In this document: one piece after another, positions 2,038-30,074 of the stretch
Position numbering within the stretch: position 1 is the stretch's first letter
Layout of the letters: every line of letters starts with the position of its first letter
Source: Dictyostelium discoideum
Taxonomy: Eukaryota
Direction of reading: 5' to 3'
Assembly: GCA_000004695.1 (NCBI GenBank)
Contig: CM000153.2
Coordinates: 736,001-800,000 of the forward strand
Length of the DNA: 64,000 nucleotides
The notes under the pieces: generated by a model
Databases searched by the model: none
What the model saw: only the letters and a program-made list of their open reading frames with translations
Told to the model about the DNA's origin: nothing
Program-made: the position numbers and the translations under genes

Positions 2038-6939
<4,902 letters not shown>

Positions 6940-6965
6940 TCTATTTCGGCCTAAACAGTGTTTTT

Positions 6966-7008
<43 letters not shown>

Positions 7009-7133
7009 CAATAATTTATAAAAAAAAGCCCGGAATCCCATTTTATTGAGTTGCGAGTGGCGAAAATTAAATTTGATTAGTTTTTATTTTATTTTTATTT
7101 TTATTTTATTTTTTTATTTTTTGATAAAAGAAA

Positions 7134-7246
7134 TTAAATTAATAATAAATCTTCAACTAACTTTCGTATGTAGGATTTATTAGAACCAAGATAGCTATTA
7201 ATTTTTTCACCATTTTTATATGTAACAAAACATGGAACACCTGAAA
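7134..7246 (-). CDS. same gene, exon 3: thioredoxin C-terminus VSGVPCFVTYKNGEKINSYLGSNKSYIRKLVEDLL
   Basis: intron 7247-7337 (GTATAT..ATATTTAG) contains (AAAT)n; the translation aligns to the thioredoxin C-terminus, [32 protein letters not shown] (quoted from memory); total CDS 1191 nt = 397 codons, in frame. Confidence 0.6.
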
Positions 7247-7277
7247 CTAAATATTGAATTAAAAATTGAATTATTAA

Positions 7278-7324
<47 letters not shown>

Positions 7325-7337
7325 ATATTATATATAC

Positions 7338-7454
7338 CATTTTTACAAACTTCTATATTGGGTAATTTGTCTAGGTCAACCTTTATAAACATGATTTGTT
7401 GTTGAGACTCTGCATAGATTTTTAAAACTTTTTCACATTCTTTACATTTATCAC
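7338..7454 (-). CDS. same gene, exon 2: thioredoxin active-site region WCDKCKEC...IMFIKVDLDKLPNIEVCKN
   Basis: 85-nt intron 7455-7539 (GTATGT..TTTTTAG); joining gives W-C-D-K-C (CxxC) in the exact position of WCGPC of thioredoxin. Confidence 0.6.
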
Positions 7455-7490
7455 CTAAAAATTAAATAATTGATTTGGTTAATTTATTTA

Positions 7491-7521
<31 letters not shown>

Positions 7522-7539
7522 GAAAAAAAAAATACATAC

Positions 7540-8418
7540 ACCACAATGTTGATAAAAATACCATTACTAAATTTCTTTTTGAAAATTCATTTTCAAATTC
7601 ATCAATACTTTTTGGTTCTGTATAATTCTTTGAGTTTTTATTATTTAAAAAATCCATTGTAAATTGTGATAACCCAGGTGGAGGTTCTAATTGTGGTCCT
7701 GATAGTTTAACAATATCAGGTATGGTTTGTGGAATAAACATTGGTTTTGAAAAAATTTGATTTATTTTTGTTGTTGGTATTGGTAATTGTTCTTGTTGCT
7801 CTTGTTGTTGTTCTTGTTGAAGTTTTTGTAATTTTAGATTTGCTAAAATTAAATCATTTTCTAATTTTGTAATTTTTAAATCTTTTTCTTTATTTGACTC
7901 AATTAAATTAATTAACATTGATTGTAATAAAACATGTGGACATGTTATTTCATGAATTGATACAATTGATCTAATTGAAGAGAATTTACAATTCACATTT
8001 TCACCTTTACAATTTATTATGATTGATTCACATTGATTTGTAATATGATTATTAATTTCTGTATTTTTAAATAACTTTCCACAACCTAATGAACATAGTT
8101 GAGTTTTACAATCATTTTTTAAATGATAATTAATGAAATTATTACACCTTTTAATTGGTATAATATCATCACATTCATCACAAACAACTAAAATCTCATT
8201 AAATTTACCAATATTAAAATCTTGTGAAATTTCTATTTTATTTACAATTTTTGTGGTTGTTGTTGTTGTTTTTATTTCACACGTTGGACATATATCTCTA
8301 CCATTTAAACATTCCCTACAAAATATTTTACCACATTGTTTCTCCTGTACAGGGTCATTTAAATAATTAGAACAAATTTGACATTTTAATTCATTACCAA
8401 TTTTATTAATTTTAATAA

Positions 8419-8464
<46 letters not shown>

Positions 8465-8500
8465 ATTACTATTCATATTTTTATTATTATTTTTTAACAA
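7540..8500 (-). CDS. RING/TRAF-zinc-finger - thioredoxin fusion protein, exon 1 (RING-like CQIC..CPTC, TRAF-type Zn finger, coiled coil, start of thioredoxin fold ending ..VMVFLSTLW-C)
   Basis: ATG at 8500; Cys patterns CQICSNYLNDPVQEKQCGKIFCRECLNGRDICPTC and CKTQLCSLGCGKLFKNTEINNHITNQC; exon ends TTG TGG T followed by GTATGT donor (7539). Confidence 0.7.
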
Positions 8501-8508
8501 TTGTTTAT

Positions 8509-8539
<31 letters not shown>

Positions 8540-9495
8540 CCTGTTTAGATCATAACATCGTCATAATGGTTTTTTTTTTTTTATTTTTTTTTTTTTTTAA
8601 AAATATCAAAAAAAAATCAAAAATTAAAAAATTAATAAAACCAAAATAAAAAATTAAAAAAAATTAAAAAAAATTAAAAAAATTAAAAAAAAAGTGTAAA
8701 AAAGAAATATATTTTTAAAAATGATTGACTTTTTTTAAAAAAAAAATATGCAAAATGAAAGTTTTAAATATTTATTTCATTTTTATTCTTTTTCTTAAGT
8801 TTTATTTAATTTTTTTTATTTTGTATAAAATTCTTATTATTATTGATTTGATTTTAAAAAAGATAAAAAGTTTATAATTTTTTTTTTTTATTTTGTATAG
8901 AACTCTTATTATTATTGATTGACAATAATATTATAAAAAATAAAAAAAATAAAATAAAAAAATAAAAAAAAAAAAAAAAAAAAAAGAAATTAAGGAATAT
9001 ATATACCCTATCCTCTTTTAAATAATTGCAATCAAATGAAAAAAAAATTAAAATATTGATTAAAAAAAAATTAAAAAAAATGAGATGATTTTCTTGAAAT
9101 TAATTTTCCCAAAAATATGTAATCAAAACAAAACAATAAAATAAATAAGGAATTAATGATAATAAAAATTATAAAATAATAATGGTATATTATAACAAAA
9201 TAGTAATATTTATAATAATTACAAGGATGAAATTTTAGAAATAATTTTTATATTTTTTTGAAATTTAACCCATTTCACACTTGTATAAAAGACACCCCAT
9301 AAAAAAAAAAAAAGAAAAAAAAAAAAAAAACTAAAAATTATAAGAACTTTTGAACAAATATTTTTGTTTTTAAATATCTTTTTTTTTTTTTTTTTTTTTT
9401 TTTTTTCATGAATAATTACCAAAATGTTTTTCAAAAATATCCCGATTTTTAAACCCAGGGTTTTAATTTTCGGTTTTGAATTAATTAACTGACAC

Positions 9496-9535
<40 letters not shown>

Positions 9536-9871
9536 AAAAAAAAAATTAAAAAAAAAATTAAAAAAAAATAATTTTTTAATCTGATTTATTTTTTTTTTAT
9601 GGAGTGTCCAAACCTTACTGATTCACTAAACCGAACCCTATTTACACCTATTTTTTATTAAAAAACAATCGTTAATTTAATATTTATTTTATTTTTATTT
9701 TTTTTCATTTTTTTTTATTTTATTTTAATTTTATTTTATTTTATTTTATTTTATTTTTTTTTTTCTATACAAAAAAAAAAAAAAATTACCTATAAATTTT
9801 TTTAGTATAAATAAAAATAACATTTATATCAATTTTAGTTTAAAGACAATTTTAGATTTGGTGTGGGTTTG

Positions 9872-9905
<34 letters not shown>

Positions 9906-10463
9906 TGTATTCTAATTTTGTGGTTTTTAGTCATCATTTTACTTTAAATATCTTTTTTTTTATTTTATTTTAAAATTCATACACAAACAATAAAATAAAT
10001 AATATTATTTCTTTTTTATTATTATTTTTTTGTTTTTCTAATAGTACAAACCTGTGATACCATTTTAATTTTGTCGTTCAGATTTCACCACAAATAATTA
10101 ATTAATTCACTCTTTGTTTATTATTAAATTAAAATAAAAAAAAAATAAAATAAAAAAAAATAAAAAAAAATAAAAAATAATAAAAATAAAAATAAAAATA
10201 AAAATAAAAAAAAGTAATAATATCTTTAAAAAATATTTATTTATAATTTTTAAAAATATTTATTTTTAATTTTTTTAATTTTTATTTTTAATTTTTATTT
10301 GTTTGAAAGTAAAAAAAAAAATAAAAAGCAAATAAAAAAAAAAAAAAAAAAAAAGAAAGCAAAATTAAAATAATTATTTTAAAAATAAGTTAAGAGTGTA
10401 TAACAACAAAAAAAAAAAAAAAATTAATTCCAGAAAATAAAAAAAATAATAATAATAATTATA

Positions 10464-12248
10464 ATGGATTTTTTAAATAAAAAAATTCAAAAAATATTAT
10501 TTATTTGTATTTTATCATTTTTAATTGTAAATTTAACTAAATCAGAAATTAGTGAAGTTAAAGATGTTAGTAAATTTTTATCAGTAGGTGGAGGAGGTAC
10601 AGGAGGATGTCAACATCCAATTTATTGTAATGGTACATTATTAAAAACAATACAATTGACACAAGTATTTAATGATTCAAAGACATTTGTCGATATGCCA
10701 ATGAGAACATCAATAGAGAATGTTAATGAATTGTTCAACCAACTTTTATTGAACACCAGTAAAAATGGTGGACCAAATAAAGAGGAGTTGGCAGCATTCC
10801 TCAGTGAAAATTTCTACCCAGCAGGGTACGAAGTTGAGCCGGTTACACCAGTAGATTGGGTGCCAAATCCAAGTTTTTTAGATGAAATCACTGATCCGAA
10901 TTTAGTGGATTTCGCAAGAAGCATCCATGGCAAATGGCTGGAATTAACCAGAGTATTCAACACCAGTGGATTGTGTGACGGTTGCTATAGTTCAATACCT
11001 GTGAATAATCCATTCGTAATTGCAGGTTCAAGATTCCGTGAGTTCTACTATTGGGATAGTTATTGGATCATTCAAGGTTTATTAGTATCTGATATGACTA
11101 CAACTGCCAAAGGCATGTTAAGAAATTTCGGTGATATGATAACTGAATTTGGGTTCATTCCAAATGGTGGTAGAATCTATTACTTAAATAGAAGTCAACC
11201 ACCACTTTTCACCCAAATGGTGAATAAATATTTTGAAGCAACCAATGGTAGTGATATTGAATTCCTTCAAGAGATATTACCAATTTTAGACCAAGAATAC
11301 CAATGGTGGATGACCCATCGTACAACAGAGTTGACCAATGGGGAAACTGGCGAAAGTGTGATTTTGAATCTTTATAATGTAAGCAACAATTCACCACGTC
11401 CAGAATCCTATTATGAGGATTTCACCGACGCTCAGTCATTTTCAAGTGTTGAAGAAAAGGATTATTTCTATAGTTCAATTGCCAGTGGTGCAGAGAGTGG
11501 TTGGGATTTCTCAAGTCGTTGGATGAGTCCATCTGACAATACCAATTTAACAACCATCCAAACCGTTGATGTAGTACCTGTGGATTTAAATTCCATACTT
11601 TATTTAAATGAAAAGATTCTTTCATCATTCCATAGAACACTTGGCAACAATTCAATGGCAGTCTATTACCAAGCTCAATCCGAGTCAAGAGTGGATGCAA
11701 TGCAACAAGTGTTTTTCAATGAGGATACTTACCAATGGAATGATTATAACTTGAAAACTAGCACAAACAATGAGGCTTGGTATACTTCAAATATTTTACC
11801 ATTGTTTGCCGACATTCAATCCTCAATCGATATGGATAACCAAGAGATTGATCTCATCTTTAAGAGTTTGGCAAATGTTTTAATAGCCTATCCAGGTGGT
11901 GTCCCTACTTCACTTATCTCTGCCCAAAGTTTACAATGGGATGGTTTAAACGTTTGGCCACCACTTCAATATTGGATCATTGAATCAATTATGACTCCAA
12001 ATACTACATTTTCAAATATGATTGGTAAAAATTTAATTGATCGTTGGATCACTACAAACTTTTGTGGTTGGAATTCAACTTTGGAATCTGAAGGTGGTAT
12101 GATGTTTGAAAAATATAATGCAAACTATATTGGTGTACCTGGTGGTGGTGGTGAATATGTTGTTCAAAATGGTTTTGGTTGGACAAATGGTGTTGATTTA
12201 TATTTATTAAAAAAATATGGTAAATCAATAACTTTAAATAGTTGTTAA
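10464..12248 (+). CDS. treh: trehalase (glycoside hydrolase family 37), secreted
   Basis: single 594-codon ORF; hydrophobic signal peptide; trehalase signature 1 SRFREFYYWDSYWIIQG and signature 2 QWDGLNVWPPLQ both present. Confidence 0.9.
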   Translation: MDFLNKKIQKILFICILSFLIVNLTKSEISEVKDVSKFLSVGGGGTGGCQHPIYCNGTLLKTIQLTQVFNDSKTFVDMPMRTSIENVNELFNQLLLNTSKNGGPNKEELAAFLSENFYPAGYEVEPVTPVDWVPNPSFLDEITDPNLVDFARSIHGKWLELTRVFNTSGLCDGCYSSIPVNNPFVIAGSRFREFYYWDSYWIIQGLLVSDMTTTAKGMLRNFGDMITEFGFIPNGGRIYYLNRSQPPLFTQMVNKYFEATNGSDIEFLQEILPILDQEYQWWMTHRTTELTNGETGESVILNLYNVSNNSPRPESYYEDFTDAQSFSSVEEKDYFYSSIASGAESGWDFSSRWMSPSDNTNLTTIQTVDVVPVDLNSILYLNEKILSSFHRTLGNNSMAVYYQAQSESRVDAMQQVFFNEDTYQWNDYNLKTSTNNEAWYTSNILPLFADIQSSIDMDNQEIDLIFKSLANVLIAYPGGVPTSLISAQSLQWDGLNVWPPLQYWIIESIMTPNTTFSNMIGKNLIDRWITTNFCGWNSTLESEGGMMFEKYNANYIGVPGGGGEYVVQNGFGWTNGVDLYLLKKYGKSITLNSC

Positions 12249-17546: not shown

Positions 17547-17868
17547 ATGAATTTTAATTTAAATTTAGAATATCTAAATAGTGATCCAAATTCTATCATT
17601 GAATATTTAACACAAATATGGAAAGAGGATGAATCATTAGGATATTATAAAGAATTTCTTGACGTTTGTTTGAAAATTGTTGCAGGTACCGATCAGCCAG
17701 AAACATTTTTCAAAGAATTAACTGATAAAAAACTTTTAAATTTCGGAGCATGTGAAACTAAATGGAGTTTCGGTGACTCTGCTTATAAATGTAGAACTTG
17801 TCAACTTGACCCAACAAGTGCATTATGTATTGCATGTTTTAAAGAAGGTGATCATGAAGGTCATGATT
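17547..17868 (+). CDS. UBR-box E3 ubiquitin ligase (N-recognin, UBR1/2/3-like) exon 1; first half of UBR box CRTCQLDPTSALCIACFKEGDHEGHD-
   Basis: ATG 17547; exon ends CAT GAT T + GTAAGT donor at 17869. Confidence 0.8.
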
Positions 17869-17967
17869 GTAAGTTAAATTTATTTATTATTTATTTTTTT
17901 TTTCCCCATATAAAATATTTTATACTAATTTTTTTTAAATTTTTTTTTTTTTTTTTTAAAAAAAAAG

Positions 17968-19174
17968 ATGCATTACAAAGTGTTGGAGGTGGATTTTGTG
18001 ATTGTGGTGATCCAGCAGCATTTAGACCAAATGGATTTTGTATTAAACATAAGGAACAAAAGATAGATATTAACAAGTATCCAGAAAGATTTATATTGGC
18101 ATTAAGTTTTGTAATACAGTTTATGTTGAAAAGGATATATGTGTTTTATGATAAGAATAATAGGGTATTGTTTGAAATGTTAATTGAATGGTTATTGAAA
18201 TTAGCACAACGTGGTGACATTATAAAGGTAGTGGTAATTAAATACATTAGTAACACAGACATTGGTAACACGAATTTATTACCACCATCACCATTTGCAG
18301 TACCATTGATTCAATTGTTCTATTCACCAGATTTACACGAATCAGTATCACGTTCAATGAAAGAGACAATCGCCAACTTTTGTGTGTTTTTACGTGGTTC
18401 AGTGGAATTTATCGAGTCGTTCATATCATTGATGTTACCAATTTACAAGAAATGTATCATCGAATGTAAGAAACATATCCTTTTATCATCATTTAGTATA
18501 TTTTCATCGACTGCAGTGGGTCCATTACTATTGTCAACCAACGCCGCTGAGATCGTGATGGATACTATCACAGAGTATTTTAGTAAACATTTTTATATTA
18601 GAGATGAATTCATTTCACCATCATCATCAGATTCAAAGTCAAAGAAAAAGAGATCATTACGTTTCAAAGATCCTTACCTTTATCCACAATTTAAACAATT
18701 GACAAAATTACATGAAACACCTTTAGCCACCCAAGTATTACGTACCGATATCTCTTTTATACTTGGTAATCAACCCGTTGCAAAGAGTGTCGTTGAGTCT
18801 AAACATCTTCTTTCCCTTTGGATCAATATGATTGCAATCGCTCAAGGTATGAATCCAAATGTTAAATATAAGATCACCTCCCCTGATGATTGGTCACCTG
18901 CTTTCAATGTTGATTTCTCCTTTAGTAATACCATTTTCTCCATAGTAAATTCAATATCACAAGATAAATTATCATTGGATCAAATTTTATTATTCTCAAC
19001 TCAATATCTTGGTAAATGGATTTTAGGTTGGTTAGAATATAGAAATAATTATCAAGTTGAAAAATTAAAAAGATTAGAAGAAAAAGAAAAAGAAGAAAAA
19101 GAAAAAGAAGAAAAAGAAAAAGAAATTGATTCAAAAGAATTAAAAACAACAACTACTACTACTACTAATACTAC

Positions 19175-19233
<59 letters not shown>

Positions 19234-21404
19234 CAATACCACATTATTTAACAAATATTAAACAATTATTATCATTACATTTAAAACGTGAAGGATTTTC
19301 ATTCCATTTACCATTACATAGATTAGTATCAGCTATTTTATTTAAATGTTTAAATAATGTTGAATTAGCAAAACAGTATAAAGATGATGGTGGTTTGAAA
19401 TCATTGTTTACTCAAATCATTGGTTCAGATTCATTGATTAGCATTTCAGATTATGCAAGAGGTACAACTTATCATCCATTCAAGATCATTGCCTCTTTAG
19501 GTGAAATTAAATCTGGTATGTGGAGATCACATGGTAGAGAAGAGGATATGACATTACAAACTGTCGTTTATCAAAGTTTACATTATCAAAAGTATTTCGA
19601 TTTAGATATTTTCTTAATTCAAATCGGTGCTGCAATTATGGGTTCAAATCAATTCATTCAACATGCTATCAATATCTATAATCTTGAAGATTGGTTTGAA
19701 ATTGAACCTTTTAATGGTTCATTAAATAAATCAACTGAGGGCACTCCTACTACCACCTCATCACAACCACCTTCAACTCCTTCAAAACAAACTTCATTAC
19801 GTAATAGTGCTGGTACTGTACCAACCACTCCTTCTCAATCTTCTTCAACTATAGTTCCAACTTTAGATACAATTGGTGAAACTACCACTACTACTACCAC
19901 CACAGCAACAACTACCACCACCACTGATGGTATAATTACAGAACCAAAAAAAGAAACTAAAGAAGAGAAAAAAATTAGAAAAGAAAAACAAAAGATTCAA
20001 GAAGATTTACAAAAGAGAAAAGGTTTAGCAGAGGATTTCTTACAAAATGTTATTATGTTTTCAACAAATAAATTAATGTGTGGTATGACAGAGGATCAAG
20101 TAATTAGAAAGGAGTTAATTCATAGATTATGTTTAGGTGATAATACTCATAGTCAATTGACAAGAGCAATCAAGAAGAAATTGGTTAATCATGAAAACTT
20201 TGAAACTATATTAAAGGAAATTTCAGTCTACCATCAACCACAAAAGACCGAACAAGGTAAATATCAATTACGTGAGCAATGTTGGTCAGAGTTTGATCCA
20301 TACTTTTCACATTACAACACTCAAGATTTACAAACTGCCGAAGAGAGATACTCTGAATTTCAATCCAAAACCAAGTCAAATATCGCTCGTGGTACCTATA
20401 TAAATTATCAAACTTCACCTTGTTTCGAAGAGATTGATCAATTACTTTGCTCAAAGACTTTACATCAAATCGTTTTCACTATCTTACAAAACCAATTGGT
20501 GGATGGTGCAAAATCAACTGATACCATATTCACCCATTGTTTACACGCTTTGGAGTTATGTATCAATCAAACTTTGGCCAATCCAGAGTTGAAGGCTGAA
20601 GCTATCAGCTCTGCAATCGTGGTTCAAACACCTTCAAAACAAACACCATTGGTTAAACCATCTTCTGCAACTCCACCAACTTCAATTCCAAAGAATTATT
20701 CAGAGATTGAATTACCATCTAAAAAGAATATCTTTTTGAATGCTTTTGTCGATGTTCCAGTTTCAGAGCAAAAGAGATTCTCTTTGATCATTTTATTGGT
20801 AAAACTTACAACCTCTCAACAAATCAATGCCGATCATAAACAACAAATTCAAAATATCATTAACATCTTGATGGAGAATAATGTCAATTGTAAACAAACC
20901 ATTGAAAATTATTGGGCTGCAATTAAAGCAAAGAAACAACCACAATCTGCACGTAAAGAGGATCCAGAGGAAGAAAAGAAACGTTTAGCTCGTGCTAGAC
21001 AAGCAGCGATTTTAGCTCAAATGAAAACTCAACAATCTGCTTTCAAATTTGAAGATGGTGAAGATGATGAAGATTACGAAGATGATTATGAAGATGCTAG
21101 CACAAAAGGTTCATCAGCTAGCGCAGCACATAAAGATAAAAAACAAAAACAAAAAGAATCAAATGCATTGGTTGTTGATGGTCATGAATCCATTACAACT
21201 TGTGCACTTTGTCGTGAACCAGGTTCATTGGATCGTCCAATGGGTAGAGTTGCTTTCATTCAACCATCTTCAATCATTATGTTATCAAAATTAACACCTG
21301 AAGAAAGAAAGAAACGTATGACTGAAGCAATAATGAAAGAACTTTATCAAGGTGTAAAAGGTAGAGAAACTATAATTTCAAATAATGATAATATAATTAA
21401 TTTA

Positions 21405-21441
<37 letters not shown>

Positions 21442-24191
21442 TTAACAACAATAATAATAATAATAATAATAATAACAATAATAATGTAAATAGTATTAAT
21501 AACAATATTGGAGGTATTCCAATTGTAAATAATGGTAATGATGGTGGTGTTAATGGTTTAACAGATTATATTCATCCAGATATGGATGAAATGGATGGTG
21601 ATGATATGGGTGATGTTGATATGGGTGGTATGGCAGTTGAGGATGATGGAGAGGATGATAGTGAGGATGAAGTAAATAAAGCTATCTCTTTCCTTAATCG
21701 TGTTTCACATTCAAATGATTTCATGGGTGGATTTGGTGATTTCGAAGATGGTATGGGTATGGATATTGAAGGTGGTGATGATGATGATGATGACGATGAT
21801 GACGCCGAAGATGATGATATGATGATGGGTGAATTGGGTGGAGTTCGTCACCATCACCACCATCATCATGGTGAGGAAGATGAAGATGGTGAAGAAGATG
21901 AAGATGGTGAAGAAGATGAAGGATCAGATTCAGATTCAGATTTGGATTTAGAAGATTTAAATGGTTCCGACGATTCAGATGATGAATTTGATTTTGGTGA
22001 TGAAGAAGGATCTGATGAATATATTTTAGAAGACGGTATGCCACGTTTACGTAGATTGGCCGGTACAAGTACTCAACAAGGAACTACTAGTACTAATAAC
22101 ACCACTGCAACATCAACCAATGATATAGCTCAAACTTTATTGAGAGCTCTAGAAAGAATACCAACAGGTACAGGAAATGTTAATAGTCGTAATATCATTA
22201 GCCAATTAACAACTCAATTATCACAAGGTAACGCAAGAGTACACATTCAAGCAAGAGATAACAATGGTAGAGCATTTTCAGAGATTAATTTTGATCAACT
22301 TCTTAGCCAATTAAATAATCAAACAAATGTTCCAATCTCTGTTCATGATAATGGTCGTAATAGAGCATCTGTAACTCTTCAATTAAATTCAACTCCTCCA
22401 ACTACAACTACCACCACAGCAACTTCACCAGCAACAACAACAACTACAACAACTACTACAGCAACAGCACCAAAACCAAATGATAATGGTGGTAGTGATG
22501 ATGAGGATTCAGATGATATGGGTGATATTGATGGGGATGATGAAGATGACTTATTTGGAGATGACGATGATTTCTTCTTTGATGATGATGAAGCAAACGA
22601 TGATGTTTTCCTTAAATTTGATGCAGCAACTGAACCAGTCACAGGTAAACCATGGTCAAATAAATTTAGTAAACAAGAAATCTTTAGAAACATTGAGGAA
22701 TCAGTAAACCTTAATTTATCATTCTGTGGTCATCAAATTCATGAAAGTTGTTTCTCTGAATACTCTTGGTCATTGTTAAAGAATAATGAAGGTGTTGAAT
22801 ATGTCGATCCAGAAAAGAATGAATTCCTTTGTGTATTATGCCGTAGAATTGGTAATGCGATCGTACCAGTTGTACCAGATTCAGGATTTTGTTCACACGA
22901 ACATACCGCATCACCACAACCAATCATCACACCAGCAATGGCAAGAAATAATAAGAATAAAGATGTTCAATGTTATTCCGAATTTTATCAAGCATTGGGT
23001 AATAGATTAATGGGTAAAGATGAAGAGCATAAAAAAGCATTGGATGCTCCAAACCCACAACCATTAAGAAATATTAGACAAGCAATCGATCAATTCTCAT
23101 CCAGAGTCTATGGTGTTAGATATGATTTGAATTTCTATAAATCAAAATCTGATGCAACCGTCATACCATTCCTTTGTTCATCTTTAGCTTCAACCATTGC
23201 AAGCACTGAACTTTCAATTCGTGTTCATGATCCAGAACAACAACAACAACAGCAACAACAACAACAACAATCAAGTCTTTATCCATTATTCTCAATGAGT
23301 GATTCAAATCGTGTTGACCTTCGTTCACTCTTTAGATATATGATTGTTCATTCACATATGTATCCATCATTGGCATATCAAGGTCAATTACTTTGGAAAT
23401 CAATATCTGGTTCACAACATACTCAATTATTACCAACTGAAGAGGAGTTGGAAGAAATTGAAAGAAAAGAAAATGAAGAAAAAGAAAAACTTTCAAAAGC
23501 AAAACTTGATCAAAAAGAAAAAGAGAAAGAAAGAGAGAAAGAAAAAGAAAAGAATGAGAGAGAAAGAACTCAAAAACTTTATCCAGAGGTTTATGATCAA
23601 GGTGTTTATGGTGAGGCATTCCCACCATTACTTTCATTAGATCTTTTCAATACTTTTATTCAAGTGTTTTTAAGATACTCTGATACTAATCTTTCATTGA
23701 ATGTTGAGAAATTCTATATGGTAGCAAGAATGTTTTATGATGCATCAATTACTCAATCGATTTTACAACATTTCAAAACCACCGATACTACTTTCACCAC
23801 CGATGATACCTATGTATCAACCATTAACAATTTAATCACAACAACCTATGAAACAGTAACACCAATCTTATCAATTCCACCAGTTCATTTGACTGCAATT
23901 AAAACTAATTCTCTAATCTTTTTAAGAAGATTATCAATCTTTTTGTTTAGTTGTTTAAAGATTGATCCAATCTCTTCAAATCAAACTACATTGGATGGTG
24001 AAATCGATTATTTAGTTGATTATTTAAATTTACCATCATTTGATCAACATTGTTTATCAGTTTTAAATGCTATCACTTCTCATACTGAAAATATTGTACC
24101 ATTGGTTTCAACTTGGACTGAACAAATATTATTTATTTCTGCTATTACTTCAAGTGTTGAAGATTCAAAAAATAATGTTGAAGATTTATCA

Positions 24192-24235
<44 letters not shown>

Positions 24236-24773
24236 AACTACTACAACAACTACTACTACAACTTCACCAAATGATAATCAAACTGTAGTTTCTTCACCAA
24301 TAAAACAATCAATTTTACCAAATCCATCAATTCCAAATCCATTCCTATTAATTCAATTACCAGAACAATACAATATTGTATCACAATATTATTCATCAAT
24401 TCCATGCCTTCAATGTAAAACCATTTCAAATAATCAAGCACTTTGTTTGGTTTGTGGTACATTATGTTGTTTGGGTGGTTGTTGTAAGAGATTCTTTGAT
24501 CAAAAGAGTGAAGCTGTTTTACATGCTGAAAAATGTAATGCTGGAACTGGTATTTTCTTACTTATCAAAACTAGTTCAACTTTATTAATTCATTTACCAA
24601 GAAAAACTTTATGGATTTCTCCTTATCTTGATGATCATGGTGAGGAAGATCCAAACTTAAGAAGAGGTAGACCATTACTTTTAAATGCTAATCGTTATAG
24701 TCAATTAAATTCATTACTCGTTAAACATCAAATCGATCAAGACTCAAAGATTGCAGAAATGTCTCAAAGATAA
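17968..24773 (+). CDS. UBR-box E3 ligase exon 2: rest of UBR box (Y-ALQSVGGGFCDCGD), long helical regions, RING-H2-like CGHQIHESC..CVLC, UBR C-terminal Cys/His-rich autoinhibitory-type domain; many low-complexity inserts (polyQ, polyN, polyT, His7, acidic)
   Basis: acceptor AAAAAAAAG at 17967; 99-nt intron is stop-free and in frame so the ORF track reads through it; splicing restores canonical GHDY..GGGFCDCGD spacing; C-terminal ..CLQCK..CLVCGTLCCLGGCC..H..C..RGRPLLL..RY motif typical of UBR1-family C-termini. Confidence 0.8.
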
Positions 24774-24907: not shown

Positions 24908-26889
24908 TTAACTATTAAAAAATTTAATTATTTCATTATTAATAAAAGTTATTGATTTATTTCTTTTATTTTTTAATTGTAAATTTGAAAAAGTTGTTTT
25001 GTTGTGTAAATATCCTAATGAATGTGTTGGTTGACTTTTAATAAAATCTTTAATATATTTACAATTACCTGTACTAATTACATGATTGATATCATTAATT
25101 GGATTGAAAAGACTAATTAATTTTATTTCAGATTGAAATCCTACCAAAGTGTTATTTGTTATTAAACCATTTCTATATAGATTATAAATAAATTTACGTT
25201 GTTTAAAATTCCTATAAATATCCAAACCAATTGAAATTTCAATTTTTGGTTTTGATTCTTCTAAAGAATTATTATATTCAATTAATTTTTGAATGGAATA
25301 ATAAAATAAATAACCAGATTCCCATTCATTTAATTCAGAGATATTATTTAATGAACCACTAAATCTATAACCAAGTTTTTCATACATAAACTTTGCAACT
25401 TGAATAGTTTCACTATGATTAATTGATGTTTGTTTATTAATTCCTCCAATATTATTATCGTGAATATATTCTATAAAATTTAAATTATTTGATTTTATAA
25501 TTAATTTACTAATTGATTCATGATCCCATATAAAAAGATCTCTATTATTTTCATAAAAATATTTAAAAATATTTTCATTACCAACTAATAAATTACCATT
25601 TAAATATTCTGGTTTTGTTGAAATATTTGAAAAATAATAAGATTTTATTATTAATGCAATTTTTTTGAAATTTTCATTATCGTCACCACTATCACTATCA
25701 CCACCGTCTCCATCACCATTTGTCTTTAGTTTATCTTGTGTATTATTGTTTATTATATGTTTAAAAATTGTTTCTTTAATATTTGTATTATACTTAAATA
25801 AAACATCTAAAAAATTTAATTGCTTTGATATTGGAGTGGTTTTTGGGTTGAAAAATAGATCTTGTGGTAATTTTATTAAATGAGATATAGCTAATCCTCT
25901 ACTATGATCAAAATGATAACCCTCTTTAAATAAATCCTTTATTCTATCAATTATTTGGGAATCTGCATATTTCATTGATACATCAATAATCATTGAACTA
26001 GTTACATCATTATTTATCCATTGACTGTTTATTTCTTCAAATAAATAATTATAATCACCATATTGACAAATAAAATTTAAAATTAATTTTACCCAATCTT
26101 CATTTGTTAATAATACCATATCTTTAACTTTTTTTAAAAATTCAAATAAAAATATTCTTTTTATTTCTCTTTCAAATATAAAATTATTATTATTATTTAA
26201 ATTATTATTAATAAGATTATTTATTTTATTTAAAGTTTCAGAATAGTAAAGTGAATCTGATTTTTGGATTTGTGATAAAAGGTATAATCCATTTTGTAAA
26301 TGATTTAAAAAGGTATTAAATGTTATTAATTGATTATTATGGTGATTATAGGTTATAAACTGAGAACAATTGACAGTTATTGAACTAAATTTATTTGTTA
26401 CTGAATTTTGTTTAAATCTATCTAATAAAGATTCAACCCAACCCATATTATATAACCTTTTAAATAGATTAAACTCTAAAAGTATTAATTTATAATTATT
26501 ATTATCATTAAGTTTTTTTGATTTTGGTGATAATTTTAATTCATCTAATAAATAACTTAATACTTCATTTCTATTTGGTAATTCTAATACATTTGAAATT
26601 AATAGTAACTCTTGTTGTAAATTTTTTTTATTTAAATAATTTTTTTTATTTTTAACAATTTCATTATTAATATATTTTATAATATCCAAATTACCGCATT
26701 TGAATGCTAAATCTAATAATATTGAACTATCTTCAACTATTTCTTGATTAATAATAATATCTTTATGAATTATTTTAACAAATTCTAAATTATTTGTACT
26801 TATAGAGAATGAAAATAATTTATTTTCACCATTCTTTAAAAAAAGTGCTTTTATTTGTTTTTTATTCTTTTGATAAAATTTATTTAAAA

Positions 26890-26962
<73 letters not shown>

Positions 26963-27256
26963 TTTATTTATTAAATGTTGAATAAAAAGTTTTAATTCAT
27001 TTTCTTCAATTTCATTCTCTTCAAATTCTATACCAATTTTAACTTTATCATATAATAGTTCAAAAAAATTATTTTTTATCATCCAACAAAATGTTGCTTC
27101 ATCAAATCTTAATCTTTGTGTATAACTCTTATTTTTAATATTACTATTGGTAATTTGTCGATTTATACCTCTAACGATTTTAAATATTTTTTTTAATAAA
27201 AATATATTATTAAAAACTGATTTATATAATGTATAGATTTTATCACTGCATTCCAT
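24908..27256 (-). CDS. lineage-specific protein family member A (782 aa) with degenerate ankyrin-like repeats; tandem paralogue of next gene
   Basis: single ORF from ATG 27256; shares N-terminal motif ..YKSVFNNIFLLKKIFKIVRGINRQ.TNS, internal (AAT)n poly-Asn, ANK-like A.K.GNL.IIKY motifs and C-terminal ..NEN/MIFKY..N..LF.W...IS..IIKS.NL..IE.IH.N.IG..region with 27555-30074. Confidence 0.75.
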
Positions 27257-27554: not shown

Positions 27555-29178
27555 TTATAATCTTGAGGTTTTAATATTAAAATAATTAATTATAAAGTTA
27601 TTATTTACAGGGAAAGATTTACAAAAATTATCATCAAATATTATTTTTGAATTATTTTCTTTAATGTATTGATTTATATATGATAAATTACCAAATTTTT
27701 TTAAAGATTCTAATGAGTTTAAAGAGTTTAAAAATTCATTTACTTGATTATCACCAATTGAAATGTTATTAAAATTTAATTTCCCATCAATGATTAATTT
27801 TGATAAAAATTTCAATTTTTTATAATCATTTCCTACTTTATTACTTGTGATAATTAATAAATTACTTGAAGAATCTGATTGATTATCTTTAATGATTTTA
27901 TTAATTGCATAATAAAATAAATAATTTGAATTCCAATCATTTAGATTTGAAATATCAATAAGTTGACTATCGAATTTATAACCCAATTTTTCATACATTA
28001 ATTCAGCAACTTGTCTAGTTTTACAATGATTAATTGAAGAATTTAAATCCAATGAACCAATTTCATTATTATGAATAAATTCAATTAATTCTAAATTACT
28101 TGATTTAATTATTGATTCACTAATATTCTTATCATTCCAATCAAATAATTCATAATGATTTTTAAAATAATATTTAAAAATCATTTCATTTCCAGTAAAT
28201 AAATTTGCAGTTAGTTTCGTAGTAGTACTACTACTGGTGGTGGTAGTGCTAGTGGTAGAATTGTAATTTTTAATAATTTCAATAATTTTATTTGCATGGT
28301 CGACAATTGTTAAATCAATAAAATTATCAAATATATTCTTTAAAATGATTTCTTTACATTGGAAATTATATTTGTAAATGGTTTCAATAAATATTAATTG
28401 TTGATTGATATTAACTAATTTTGGATTATAATAATAATTGTTTGTTGATGTGTCATTGTGATGTCTAACATATGATTCATCTAAATAACGTTGAAAATAT
28501 TGTTCATAAAATGTTGGTATAACTTCAATGAAATTTGGGTCACCATGTTGTACAGCTATTTGGATAACCAATGATGAAAACATTTTCTCTGGTGATTTTA
28601 ATTTTACATTTATATCTTCAATCTTTTTAATATTTAATTCATCTTGAATTAAATTATATTCTTGACTTTCTCTTGAATAATTTAATATAATAAGTGTCCA
28701 TTCATCTTGTGAAAATATTAATTCTTTAATTTCTTTTAAAAAATCAATTAAAATAATTCTTTTTAATTGAATTTCAATTTTATTTCCACTAAAATTAATT
28801 TCATCATCATCATCACTATTAATTTCAACAATTGATTTAACTTTATTTGAAATTACTGATTTAATATTTGAAAATAAATTTGTTATTTTAAATTCTGCCT
28901 GTTGTTCATATTTCTCATTTTGCTGGTCTTCTTCTTGTTGTTGGTCTTGTTGTTGTAATAATTTATTTATATTTTTTAAAGGCTGACAATATTTAGATTT
29001 AATAGTTGATAAAAATAAAATTGTATTTTGGAAAAAATTTAAAACATTATTAAATGGAATAAAATCTTTTCCATTATTATAATTTATTAAATATTTTGAA
29101 TAAAGTCTAATTCTTGTGCAAAGTTTACTAATTATTAAATCATGTGAACTTTTATTAATAATAAAATTATTATTATTA

Positions 29179-29213
<35 letters not shown>

Positions 29214-30074
29214 GGTTGGTATTGAAATTAAACCAATTTCAAATAACTTTTTAAATAATGATGATTCTAAATTAAAAAAATCAGTGAATAATGATTTTGG
29301 ATCGTATGGATAATTATCATCTCTTTCCGATTTTATTGGTTTGAAATTAATTTCATTTAATAAATATTTAATTATTTTGTTTTTATTATTAATAGTAGTG
29401 GTTGATGCAATTATATTATTTATTGTTTTCTCTCTGTCAACAAATTCAATACCTAATGTATTATGAACAAATTTAATTATTTCTAAATTTCCATTCTTTA
29501 TTGCACTATCCATTAGAAAGTTAAATGGGTTATTCGTTTTTTCAAGTTTAAATTCTTTATTTATAAACTCTTGTTGATATATTATTTCAATAAAATCCAA
29601 ATTTTGTGAATCTACTGCAAATTTTAAAATTCCATCTATCGAAGCCAATTCTTTAATTAATTTTTTATTTGTTTCATAAAATGTATTTAAAATTTCTTTT
29701 GTAATAATTAATGATGGTGTTGATGTTGGTGTTGGTGTTGGTGTTGGTGATGTTGATGATGTTGATGATGTTGATGTTAATGTTAAAAATAATGAAATGT
29801 TTGGTAACGTGAAATCATCATTTTCTTCTTTAAATTGTTTACCAATTTTGATTTTATCTTTTAATAATTGAAAATGAGCATTTTTAACCATCCAAATAAA
29901 TGTTGCTTCATTGTATCTACATCTTTGTGTGAATGATTTATTTTCTATCATACTATTTGTAAATTGTCTGTTTATACCTCTAACAAATTTATAAATCTTT
30001 TTACATAAATAAATATCATTAAATACTAATTTATATAATTTATAAATGTCAAATCTATGAGAACTAACAACCAT
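27555..30074 (-). CDS. lineage-specific protein family member B (839 aa), paralogue of 24908-27256
   Basis: single ORF from ATG 30074; colinear similarity to upstream paralogue at N-terminus, middle and C-terminus; PT-rich linker; poly-Asn. Confidence 0.75.

What the first reader, a model, noticed from the sequence alone, without database searches (positions are those of the whole stretch)
7134..8500. Three-exon gene fusing a RING/TRAF-type zinc-finger E3-like N-terminus to a thioredoxin fold with a WCDKC active site
The ORF track shows a 338-aa RING/TRAF-like ORF and, separately, a 68-aa thioredoxin C-terminus. Hand splicing (GTATGT..TAG 85-nt intron, then GTATAT..TAG 91-nt intron) joins ..EFENEFSKRNLVMVFLSTLW + CDKCKEC.. 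+ ..VSGVPCFVTYKNGEKI.. into one complete thioredoxin domain after the coiled coil. The exon phases close exactly at 397 codons. The CxxC motif is split across an intron and reads CDKC instead of CGPC, which suggests an altered redox potential. A TRAF-like E3 scaffold carrying its own disulfide oxidoreductase domain is an unusual architecture and hints at redox-coupled ubiquitin signalling.
Basis: partly seen in the sequence, partly recalled or inferred. Interest (0 to 1): 0.65.

Follow-up and report, generated by a model that had tools for sequence, protein, structure and literature searches.

The report
TRAF-like RING protein ending in thioredoxin
A real three-exon Dictyostelium discoideum gene encodes a 388-residue protein with a TRAF6-like RING/zinc-finger/coiled-coil front end and an unusual thioredoxin domain where TRAFs normally carry their target-binding MATH domain; I found this fusion only in the closest relatives of D. 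discoideum, and its function is untested.

Summary
On the minus strand, exon 1 (8476-7540), exon 2 (7454-7338) and exon 3 (7246-7134) join across introns of 85 nt and 91 nt. The product is one 388-aa protein.

The joined C-terminus is a full thioredoxin domain (Pfam 46 bits against a cut-off of 23.5). It aligns without gaps to Plasmodium thioredoxin, and its first third lies in exon 1, so it cannot be a separate gene. The window is D. discoideum AX4, next to the trehalase gene.

D. citrinum, D. dimigraforme and D. cf. discoideum keep both intron positions, the stop codon and WCDKCKEC. Thioredoxin is the most constrained domain (dN/dS 0.11).

The N-terminus is TRAF6-like by family profile (E 3e-19) and by fold (3hcs is the top hit). 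However, there is no MATH domain, the RING lacks its His ligand (Lys instead), and the thioredoxin lacks the buried Asp (Phe instead).

No other protein among the best 150 hits from 1.84 billion representatives combines both parts. The D. citrinum annotation already carries the same model, while two other assemblies wrongly merge this gene with its downstream neighbour.

"Redox-coupled ubiquitin signalling" remains conjecture. Interest is moderate.

The parts
7540..8476 (-). Exon 1 (937 nt, ends in phase 1). It encodes Met1 to Trp312 plus the first base of Cys313: poly-Asn head, RING, three zinc fingers, coiled coil, linker, and the first third of the thioredoxin domain.
   Evidence: First ATG at 8476-8474. 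Exon boundary conserved in 4 species.
8279..8383 (-). RING finger, residues 32-66 (CQIC...CGKIFCREC...CPTC). Seven of the eight canonical ligands are present; the His position is Lys50.
   Evidence: Pfam RING models at E 3e-5 to 5e-3, all below their gathering cut-offs. Lys at the His position here, Asn/Gln in most homologues. Model pLDDT about 90.
7940..8182 (-). Three TRAF-type CCHC zinc fingers, residues 99-123, 128-149 and 156-179.
   Evidence: The CCHC ligands are invariant columns in the 44-sequence alignment. The profile hits TRAF6 5vo0/3hcs over RING+ZnF. 26 of 44 homologues hit Pfam zf-TRAF, although this protein alone does not. Foldseek top hit is 3hcs_A, E 6e-7.
7787..7924 (-). Long helix, residues about 185-230, presumed coiled coil (TRAF-N-like), running into a Gln/Glu-rich tract.
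   Evidence: AlphaFold helix 185-230 with pLDDT 96-99. Same helix in the D. citrinum orthologue. Oligomerisation is inferred.
7607..7699 (-). Conserved linker motif GPQLEPPPGLSQFTMDFLNNKNSKNYTEPKS (residues 260-290), just before the thioredoxin domain. GPQLEPPPGLSQFTMDFLNNKN is invariant.
   Evidence: The first 22 residues are identical in all 4 species and the rest is nearly so. Linker dN/dS 0.19. Function unknown. Low model confidence.
7134..7621 (-). Thioredoxin domain, residues 286-388, spread over exons 1-3 (the genomic span includes both introns).
   Evidence: Pfam PF00085 at 46.3 bits, cut-off 23.5. Gapless phmmer alignment to P. falciparum Trx 2mmn/1syr, E 8e-14. Orthologue model TM 0.91 and rmsd 1.4 A to 1syr. 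dN/dS 0.11.
7455..7539 (-). Intron 1 (85 nt, GTATGT...TTTTTAG), phase 1, inside the codon of the first active-site Cys.
   Evidence: Same position in 4 species with lengths 85/89/69/53 nt. Read-through meets a stop within 12-22 codons.
7338..7454 (-). Exon 2 (117 nt): (C)DKCKECEKVLKIYAESQQQIMFIKVDLDKLPNIEVCKN.
   Evidence: Exactly 117 nt in all 4 species. dN/dS 0.04.
7435..7543 (-). Active-site codons WCDKCKEC (residues 312-319), interrupted by intron 1. This is a CxxCxxC run in place of WCGPCK.
   Evidence: Invariant in 4 species. CDKC occurs once among the thioredoxin-domain hits tallied.
7247..7337 (-). Intron 2 (91 nt, GTATAT...ATTTAG), phase 1. It contains a (TTTA)n microsatellite.
   Evidence: Same position in 4 species with lengths 91/96/73/98 nt.
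7241..7243 (-). Alternative in-frame acceptor CAG, 6 nt downstream of the main TAG. Using it would remove Val-Ser and give 386 aa.
   Evidence: The motif TTTAGTTTCAGGTG is conserved in 4 species. Whether it is used is unknown.
7134..7246 (-). Exon 3 (113 nt including TAA at 7136-7134): VSGVPCFVTYKNGEKINSYLGSNKSYIRKLVEDLLLI*, with the cis-Pro loop (VPC).
   Evidence: The stop codon is at the same alignment position in 4 species.

Best explanation
This is one protein-coding gene of D. discoideum AX4, on chromosome 4 about 2 kb from the trehalase gene and divergently transcribed from it. It has three exons and a 388-aa product.

The product follows the N-terminal plan of a TRAF: a RING, three TRAF-type CCHC zinc fingers and a long coiled-coil helix. 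The C-terminal MATH (TRAF-C) target-binding domain is absent. A roughly 50-residue flexible linker leads instead to a thioredoxin domain of canonical length with an atypical site. That site reads WCDKCKEC instead of WCGPCK, has Phe in place of the buried catalytic Asp, keeps the cis-Pro, and has Cys after it.

Most likely mechanism (inferred, not shown). The protein has no signal peptide or membrane segment, so it is probably cytosolic. The coiled coil (and possibly the RING) brings several copies together. The thioredoxin domain takes over the MATH role as the module that meets the partner. It would engage partner proteins through the CxxC/cis-Pro groove in a redox-dependent way. Loss of the general acid/base Asp and the Asp-Lys dipeptide would favour slow resolution, so binding or sensing would dominate over fast turnover. 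In this way oxidation state would be coupled to TRAF-type scaffolding, and to ubiquitin transfer if the RING is active.

My confidence that the gene model and architecture are right is about 0.93. My confidence in the redox-dependent recognition or sensing role is about 0.35. The single figure of 0.55 given below is a blend of the two.
For: Gene model:
- Splice signals, frame closure and the intron/exon GC contrast fit.
- The thioredoxin profile is matched only by the joined exons, and its N-terminal third lies in the same ORF as the TRAF-like part.
- The alignment to solved thioredoxins has no gaps.
- The D. citrinum protein ACTFIU_000877 (384 aa, 80% identical, Pfam RING + Thioredoxin) is annotated with the same structure.
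- Both intron positions, the 117-nt exon 2 and the stop codon are conserved in D. citrinum, D. dimigraforme and D. cf. discoideum. Intron lengths vary and break the frame.
- dS is about 0.3 throughout, while dN/dS is 0.11 in thioredoxin, 0.28 in the RING and 0.29 in the zinc fingers.

Species: the adjacent ORF is an exact match to DDB_G0283473 / TREA_DICDI.

TRAF-like N-terminus:
- The family profile hits TRAF6 5vo0/3hcs at E 3e-19 over RING plus fingers.
- Pfam zf-TRAF is hit by 26 of 44 homologues.
- The AX4 model's top fold hits are TRAF6 3hcs and 5vo0.

No MATH domain: no Pfam hit.

Thioredoxin fold: TM 0.91 to 1syr.

Modular logic: homologues of the same RING/zinc-finger module carry other C-terminal domains such as Kelch, pentapeptide, F5/8-C, SH3 and ubiquitin.

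[quoted passage not shown] TrafE is an active E3 in the membrane-damage response (PMC10181826, title and abstract).
Against: - I had no transcript data, so splicing rests on comparative and domain evidence.
- The RING lacks the His ligand (Lys50), and in AX4 the residue after the last Cys is Glu where the family consensus is Arg. E3 activity may therefore be weak or absent.
- This protein alone does not reach any Pfam RING gathering score and does not hit zf-TRAF.
- The thioredoxin site departs from canon at Gly33, Pro34 and Asp26.
- The one published CDKC thioredoxin domain I found, Eps1p Trx2, is buried with a trans proline and inactive (PMC4249923). Conserved motifs therefore do not prove chemistry.
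- All four species are close relatives and the whole domain is conserved, so conservation cannot single out the cysteines.
- The exact AX4 reference annotation could not be retrieved.
Confidence: 0.55

Rival explanations
1. The thioredoxin fold is redox-dead and serves only as a protein-protein interaction or structural module, like PDI b domains or Eps1p Trx2. The protein would then be a plain adaptor or E3 with no thiol chemistry.
For: - The buried Asp is replaced by Phe, and Gly-Pro by Asp-Lys.
- The only published CDKC thioredoxin domain I found is buried and non-functional (PMC4249923).
- Thioredoxin also acts as a non-catalytic bound regulator in solved complexes such as NLRP1-thioredoxin 7wge (listed).
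Against: - Unlike Eps1p Trx2, this domain keeps the Trp before the CxxC and has no insertions. It aligns without gaps to active thioredoxins and models at rmsd 1.4 A.
- Both cysteines and the loop Pro are invariant in 4 species.
Confidence: 0.22
2. The CxxCxxC run (Cys313, 316, 319), together with Cys357 next to the cis-Pro, forms a metal site (Zn or Fe-S) instead of a redox disulfide. The domain would then be a metal- or oxidant-sensing switch.
For: - There are five Cys in the domain, all invariant in 4 species.
- Cys357 replaces the usual Thr beside the active site.
- From my own knowledge, engineered and natural thioredoxin-fold proteins with extra active-site Cys can bind 2Fe-2S clusters.
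Against: - I could not obtain coordinates to measure sulfur distances.
- Position 38 (E. coli numbering) normally points into the core.
- No homologue among the hits tallied shows this motif, so there is no family-level support.
Confidence: 0.07
3. The gene is longer than proposed. It continues past 7134 into the downstream 1633-aa ORF (2038-6939), as predicted by the automated annotations of two assemblies (2013-aa and 1960-aa products).
For: The gene calls in GCA_054883475.1 (L003) and GCA_054859205.1 (L005) span both genes.
Against: - The in-frame stop sits at the same alignment position in 4 species.
- The downstream ORF starts with its own ATG and a signal-peptide-like segment.
- D. citrinum keeps the 384-aa gene and its stop but has only about 300 nt of remnants of the downstream gene at that site.
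- D. dimigraforme annotates two separate genes.
Confidence: 0.04
4. There are two separate units: a TRAF-like gene ending at the stop 7484-7486, plus an independent thioredoxin gene or a decaying thioredoxin relic.
For: The unspliced ORF does terminate at 7484-7486, and a 68-aa ORF covers the thioredoxin C-terminus.
Against: - Thioredoxin profile positions 8-28 lie in exon 1, in frame with the TRAF-like part.
- The 68-aa ORF starts inside the AT-repeat intron and has no thioredoxin N-terminus.
- Exon 2 and exon 3 have dN/dS 0.04 and 0.26, with dS 0.2-0.6.
- The read-through tail after exon 1 is not conserved, and its stop shifts between species.
Confidence: 0.03

Closest known systems
TRAF6 and the D. 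discoideum TRAF-like family (DdTRAFa-p, TrafE)
   Same: N-terminal RING followed by TRAF-type CCHC zinc fingers and a coiled coil. TRAF6 RING+ZnF is the best PDB match by profile and by fold. D. discoideum has more than 40 TRAF-like genes (PMC5758549).
   Different: There is no MATH/TRAF-C domain; a thioredoxin domain sits at the C-terminus instead. The RING His ligand is Lys. The gene is not among the 16 named RING+ZnF+MATH DdTRAFs in Table 2 of PMC5758549.
D. discoideum paralogue P0002 (ACTFIW_012509, 284 aa) and its orthologues in D. citrinum, D. dimigraforme, D. cf. discoideum and D. firmibasis
   Same: It is the closest relative of the N-terminal half: 46% identity over residues 2-207, with the same RING (Gln at the His position), three fingers and the SNKEKD...KLE coiled coil.
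   Different: It ends in a Gln-rich tail with no thioredoxin domain, and no thioredoxin exons lie downstream. It sits at a different locus.
Classical cytosolic thioredoxin (for example P. falciparum Trx 1syr/2mmn, human TXN)
   Same: Same fold and length, Trp-Cys-x-x-Cys-Lys at the start of helix 2, conserved loop Pro and the KNG turn. About 32% identity, TM 0.91.
   Different: The dipeptide is Asp-Lys, not Gly-Pro. The buried Asp is Phe. There are extra Cys at +3 after the CxxC, next to the cis-Pro, and in EVC. The domain is tethered to a TRAF-like scaffold rather than free-standing.
Yeast Eps1p second thioredoxin domain (KNCDKC)
   Same: It is the only published thioredoxin-fold domain with a Cys-Asp-Lys-Cys motif that my literature search found.
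   Different: [quoted passage not shown] Its CxxC is buried and its Pro is trans (PMC4249923). The Dictyostelium domain has none of these insertions.
Thioredoxin as a non-covalent redox-sensing subunit of signalling proteins (ASK1-Trx with TRAF2/6 recruitment; NLRP1-Trx, PDB 7wge)
   Same: This is a functional analogy: thioredoxin's redox state gates an innate-immunity or stress signalling scaffold. In mammals TRAF2/6 and thioredoxin act on the same ASK1 complex (my own knowledge). 7wge appears among the fold hits.
   Different: In those systems thioredoxin is a separate canonical protein that binds reversibly. Here a divergent thioredoxin is fused in cis. No ASK1-like partner was examined.

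Membership tests
Thioredoxin family (Pfam PF00085, thioredoxin fold) | Sequence match above the curated family threshold | tested here: met
   46.3 bits for the whole protein and 51.1 bits for the domain, against a cut-off of 23.5. Profile positions 8-100 of 103 are covered.
Thioredoxin family (Pfam PF00085, thioredoxin fold) | Thioredoxin fold of canonical length | tested here: met
   The AlphaFold model of the D. citrinum orthologue has pLDDT above 92 over 280-384. Foldseek gives TM 0.91 and rmsd 1.4 A to 1syr. The AX4 sequence aligns without gaps.
Thioredoxin family (Pfam PF00085, thioredoxin fold) | Trp-Cys-x-x-Cys at the start of helix 2, and a Pro in the cis-Pro loop | tested here: met
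   WCDKC and VPC align with WCGPC and MPT of P. falciparum Trx. Both are invariant in 4 species. The cis conformation itself cannot be tested here.
Classical thioredoxin (disulfide reductase subgroup) | Gly-Pro dipeptide in the CxxC, and the buried Asp (E. coli Asp26) that serves the resolving Cys | tested here: not met
   The dipeptide is Asp-Lys, and Asp26 aligns with Phe307.
Classical thioredoxin (disulfide reductase subgroup) | Disulfide reductase activity and recycling by thioredoxin reductase | not testable with these tools
   Needs an insulin or DTNB assay with the recombinant domain.
TRAF family (TNF receptor-associated factors) | TRAF-type CCHC zinc fingers after a RING | tested here: met
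   There are three C-x(2-6)-C-x(11-16)-H-x(3-4)-C units whose ligands are invariant alignment columns. The profile hits TRAF6 at E 3e-19. The fold search puts 3hcs_A first. Caveat: Pfam zf-TRAF is hit by 26 of 44 homologues but not by this protein alone.
TRAF family (TNF receptor-associated factors) | Coiled coil (TRAF-N) after the fingers | tested here: met
   Predicted helix 185-230 with pLDDT 96-99. Oligomeric state was not tested.
TRAF family (TNF receptor-associated factors) | C-terminal MATH / TRAF-C domain | tested here: not met
   No MATH hit at E up to 1. The C-terminus is a thioredoxin domain. The protein is therefore TRAF-like in its N-terminal half only.
RING-type E3 ubiquitin ligases | Eight cross-brace zinc ligands (C3HC4) | tested here: not met
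   There are seven Cys, and the His position is Lys50 (Lys in three of the four orthologues examined, Gln in D. dimigraforme; Asn/Gln in most homologues). All Pfam RING scores fall below their gathering cut-offs.
RING-type E3 ubiquitin ligases | E2-contact residues and the basic 'linchpin' after the last Cys | tested here: inconclusive
   Ile34 after Cys1 and Pro64 after Cys7 are present. The residue after Cys66 is Glu in AX4 and Lys in the other three species, where the family consensus is Arg.
RING-type E3 ubiquitin ligases | E2-dependent ubiquitin transfer | not testable with these tools
   Needs an in vitro (auto)ubiquitination assay.

The most novel reading that the evidence does not exclude
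The thioredoxin domain may be the substrate receptor of an oligomeric RING ligase. Its nucleophilic Cys313 would attack disulfides or sulfenic acids on oxidised client proteins. Because the general-base Asp is missing and the dipeptide is Asp-Lys, the mixed disulfide would be long-lived. The covalently held client would then be ubiquitinated by the RING. This would be a 'thiol-trapping' E3 that selects its targets by their oxidation state, and it would have arisen recently in the D. discoideum clade.
Probability: 0.12. Interest if true: 0.72.

Novelty: new variant of a known kind. Interest (0 to 1): 0.4.

Why it matters
TRAF-like RING proteins are a large, mostly unstudied family in D. discoideum, which is a model for cell-autonomous immunity and the membrane-damage response. 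One member, TrafE, is already known to coordinate ESCRT and autophagy.

A family member whose target-binding MATH domain is replaced by a thiol-disulfide module would link oxidation state to a TRAF scaffold within a single polypeptide. In mammals thioredoxin and TRAF2/6 meet only as separate proteins, on ASK1.

The gene is small and the species is genetically tractable. The hypothesis can therefore be tested directly with a knockout, Cys mutants and trapping proteomics.

There is also a practical point. Two recent automated annotations fuse this gene with its neighbour, so the model given here corrects them.

Tried and rejected
- **Exact look-ups.** I looked up the spliced protein and 17 variants (386-aa acceptor variant, intron-retained forms, TTG start, poly-Asn lengths 7-14, the D. 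dimigraforme model). None is in the collection. I therefore could not recover the AX4 reference gene id or its model. This does not show that the gene is unannotated.
- **Homology search with the full protein.** It returned only the D. citrinum cluster.
- **Homology search with linker plus thioredoxin.** It returned nothing, not even that orthologue. The word index evidently misses relatives, so these absences carry no weight.
- **Spliced protein as a query.** I used the D. citrinum orthologue instead.
- **afdb50 fold library.** It was not available, so no UniProt or AlphaFold-DB entry could be found for D. discoideum.
- **Missed thioredoxin exons in P0002.** I tested whether the 284-aa relative P0002 is a truncated model. 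tblastn and three-frame translation of the 830 nt downstream found none. It turned out to be a D. discoideum paralogue.
- **Paper searches.** Searches for neighbouring DDB_G ids found nothing. The TRAF table in PMC5758549 does not list this gene.
- **Entamoeba 'TIR-thioredoxin' (PMC3481431).** This is only a thioredoxin with claimed TIR-like structural similarity, not a comparable fusion. I dropped it as a close analogue.
- **Non-coding RNA.** Rfam and tRNA scans of the window found nothing.
- **Origin of the thioredoxin module.** I could not test whether a resident trx gene has the same intron positions, because no D. discoideum trx locus was in reach.
Full report
**What is in the sequence.**
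The region is AT-rich eukaryotic DNA.

Reading the minus strand and splicing by script gives this structure:

| Part | Coordinates | Notes |
|---|---|---|
| Exon 1 | 8476-7540 | 937 nt |
| Intron 1 | 7539-7455 | 85 nt, GTATGT...TAG, GC 8% |
| Exon 2 | 7454-7338 | 117 nt |
| Intron 2 | 7337-7247 | 91 nt, GTATAT...TAG, GC 4% |
| Exon 3 | 7246-7134 | includes TAA at 7136-7134 |

Exon GC is 22-27%. The product is 388 aa. The first ATG is at 8476. A second in-frame acceptor (CAG) lies 6 nt further on and would remove Val-Ser.

**Is the joined thioredoxin real?**
Pfam Thioredoxin (PF00085) scores 46 bits on the whole protein and 51 bits on the C-terminal 107 residues, against a cut-off of 23.5. It covers profile positions 8-100 of 103. 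About 20 of those positions lie in exon 1, in frame with the zinc-finger part, so the domain cannot belong to a separate gene.

phmmer against PDB sequences gives a gapless alignment to P. falciparum thioredoxin (2mmn/1syr, E 8e-14). This also favours the upstream acceptor (VSGVP).

That alignment shows four departures from canonical thioredoxin:
- WCGPCK becomes WCDKCK, followed by a third Cys (CxxCxxC).
- The buried Asp (E. coli Asp26) becomes Phe307.
- The loop Pro is kept.
- The Thr after that Pro becomes Cys.

**Which organism, and is it annotated?**
The neighbouring single-exon ORF (10464-12248) is an exact match to D. discoideum AX4 trehalase DDB_G0283473. The spliced protein and many variants are not in the collection by exact look-up, so the AX4 reference model stays unknown to me.

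A homology search found one relative: the D. citrinum hypothetical protein ACTFIU_000877. It is 384 aa, 80% identical, and carries Pfam RING + Thioredoxin.

Gene calls in two other assemblies (another D. discoideum and a D. cf. discoideum) merge this gene with the downstream 1633-aa gene, giving products of 2013 aa and 1960 aa. I judge these merges to be errors, for three reasons:
- The stop codon is conserved in four species.
- The downstream ORF has its own signal-peptide-like start.
- D. citrinum keeps this gene but has only remnants of the neighbour.

**Comparative test of the gene model.**
I used trehalase synteny to fetch the loci of D. citrinum (L001), D. dimigraforme (L004) and D. cf. 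discoideum (L005). All three show the same structure:
- Exon 2 is always 117 nt.
- Intron 1 is 85/89/69/53 nt and intron 2 is 91/96/73/98 nt.
- Read-through of intron 1 always meets a stop within 12-22 codons.
- The indels within exon 1 are multiples of three.

Between AX4 and D. citrinum, exon identity is 87% and intron identity is 74%.

dN/dS by region, with dS about 0.3 throughout:

| Region | dN/dS |
|---|---|
| Whole protein | 0.30 |
| RING | 0.28 |
| Zinc fingers | 0.29 |
| Coiled coil | 0.77 |
| Linker | 0.19 |
| Thioredoxin domain | 0.11 |

WCDKCKEC, VSGVPCF and the linker core GPQLEPPPGLSQFTMDFLNNKN are invariant. The gene is intact and under purifying selection, which is strongest on the thioredoxin part.

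**The N-terminal half.**
On its own, the protein hits RING models only below their gathering cut-offs and does not hit zf-TRAF. Three further lines of evidence place it with TRAF6:
- An alignment with 43 homologues has invariant columns for seven RING cysteines and three CCHC fingers.
- The profile built from that alignment hits TRAF6 RING+ZnF (5vo0, 3hcs) best, at E 3e-19. 26 of the 44 members hit Pfam zf-TRAF.
- An AlphaFold model of AX4 residues 1-237 (mean pLDDT 84, helix 185-230 at 96-99) has TRAF6 3hcs and 5vo0 as its best PDB fold matches (E 6e-7).

The canonical RING His is Lys here, and Asn or Gln in most homologues. The residue after the last Cys is Glu in AX4. There is no MATH domain.

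The full-length model of the D. citrinum orthologue shows a disordered stretch at 225-275, between the coil and a thioredoxin domain with pLDDT above 92. That domain superposes on 1syr with TM 0.91.

**How widespread is the fusion?**
HMMER over 1.84 billion representatives, with the D. citrinum orthologue as query, gave 2029 hits. Among the best 150, only the query's own cluster matches both halves. A protein matching both halves would be expected to rank near the top.

The best N-terminal relative, P0002 (46% identity), is a D. discoideum paralogue at another locus. It has no thioredoxin exons. It has orthologues in D. citrinum, D. dimigraforme, D. cf. discoideum and D. firmibasis.

Homologues of the RING/zinc-finger module carry various other C-terminal domains. 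Swapping the C-terminal module is therefore a family habit, and thioredoxin is a new instance of it. CDKC was unique among the thioredoxin-domain hits I tallied. The only published CDKC thioredoxin domain I found is Eps1p Trx2, which is buried and inactive but also structurally aberrant (PMC4249923).

**Interpretation.**
Shown:
- One gene.
- A TRAF-like N-terminal half.
- No MATH domain.
- A canonical-fold thioredoxin domain with an atypical site.
- Purifying selection.
- A distribution restricted to the D. discoideum clade.

Inferred:
- The protein is cytosolic, because it has no signal peptide or membrane segment.
- It oligomerises through the coil.
- The thioredoxin domain stands in for MATH as the partner-recognition or sensing module.
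- Loss of Asp26 and the Asp-Lys dipeptide favour slow, binding-type thiol chemistry. This last point rests on established thioredoxin enzymology, recalled from my own knowledge.

Whether the RING transfers ubiquitin is open. The main rivals are a redox-dead interaction domain (0.22) and a metal site (0.07). The two alternative gene models are unlikely (0.04 and 0.03).

**Verdict.**
The finding is a new variant of a known kind and of moderate interest. The gene model already exists in a sister-species annotation, and the D. discoideum genome has been public for years. Even so, the architecture is rare and undescribed in the literature I could search, and it is easy to test.

Noticed in passing
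window 2038-6939 (-): A 1633-aa ORF lies directly downstream. It has a signal-peptide-like start (MKARILLFLSIFIIISFFFS), a poly-Asn tract of about 60 residues and a hydrophobic multi-pass C-terminus, and it has no Pfam hit. It is present in D. dimigraforme and D. cf. discoideum, but at the syntenic D. citrinum site only about 300 nt of remnants remain.
   Followed up: partly
L003 1-4026 and L005 1-6178 (corresponding to window about 4464-8489): The automated annotations of GCA_054883475.1 and GCA_054859205.1 merge the TRAF-thioredoxin gene with the downstream gene into products of 2013 aa and 1960 aa. The D. dimigraforme model (417 aa) also differs from the conserved 383-aa structure. These are probably annotation errors.
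   Followed up: partly
window 6375-6550: A very long (AAT/ATT)n run, about 170 nt, encodes the poly-Asn tract of the downstream gene.
   Followed up: no
window 7260-7320 (intron 2): Intron 2 contains a (TTTA)n microsatellite of about 12 units. In the other three species it is replaced by different AT-rich sequence.
   Followed up: no
window 8500-10460: The roughly 1.9-kb spacer between this gene and the divergently transcribed trehalase gene lies within one continuous 5.5-kb alignment to D. citrinum that averages about 80% identity (one HSP). That is high for Dictyostelium intergenic DNA. There is no Rfam or tRNA hit.
   Followed up: partly
window 7607-7699 (-), residues 260-290: The linker motif GPQLEPPPGLSQFTMDFLNNKNSKNYTEPKS has a core that is identical in four species, making it more conserved than the RING. 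I recognised no known motif in it. It could dock on the thioredoxin domain or on a partner.
   Followed up: no
window 17547-24773 (+): A 2408-aa ORF with zf-UBR, UBR1-like winged-helix and PRT6_C domains, which marks it as a UBR1-type N-recognin E3.
   Followed up: no
window 24908-27256 (-) and 27555-30074 (-): Two tandem ORFs (782 aa and 839 aa) with similar N-termini and no Pfam hit.
   Followed up: no
L002 5001-5855: A D. discoideum paralogue (P0002, 284 aa) with RING, three fingers, a coil and a Gln-rich tail, and neither MATH nor thioredoxin. It is conserved out to D. firmibasis. It is a candidate for the ancestral form of the N-terminal half.
   Followed up: partly
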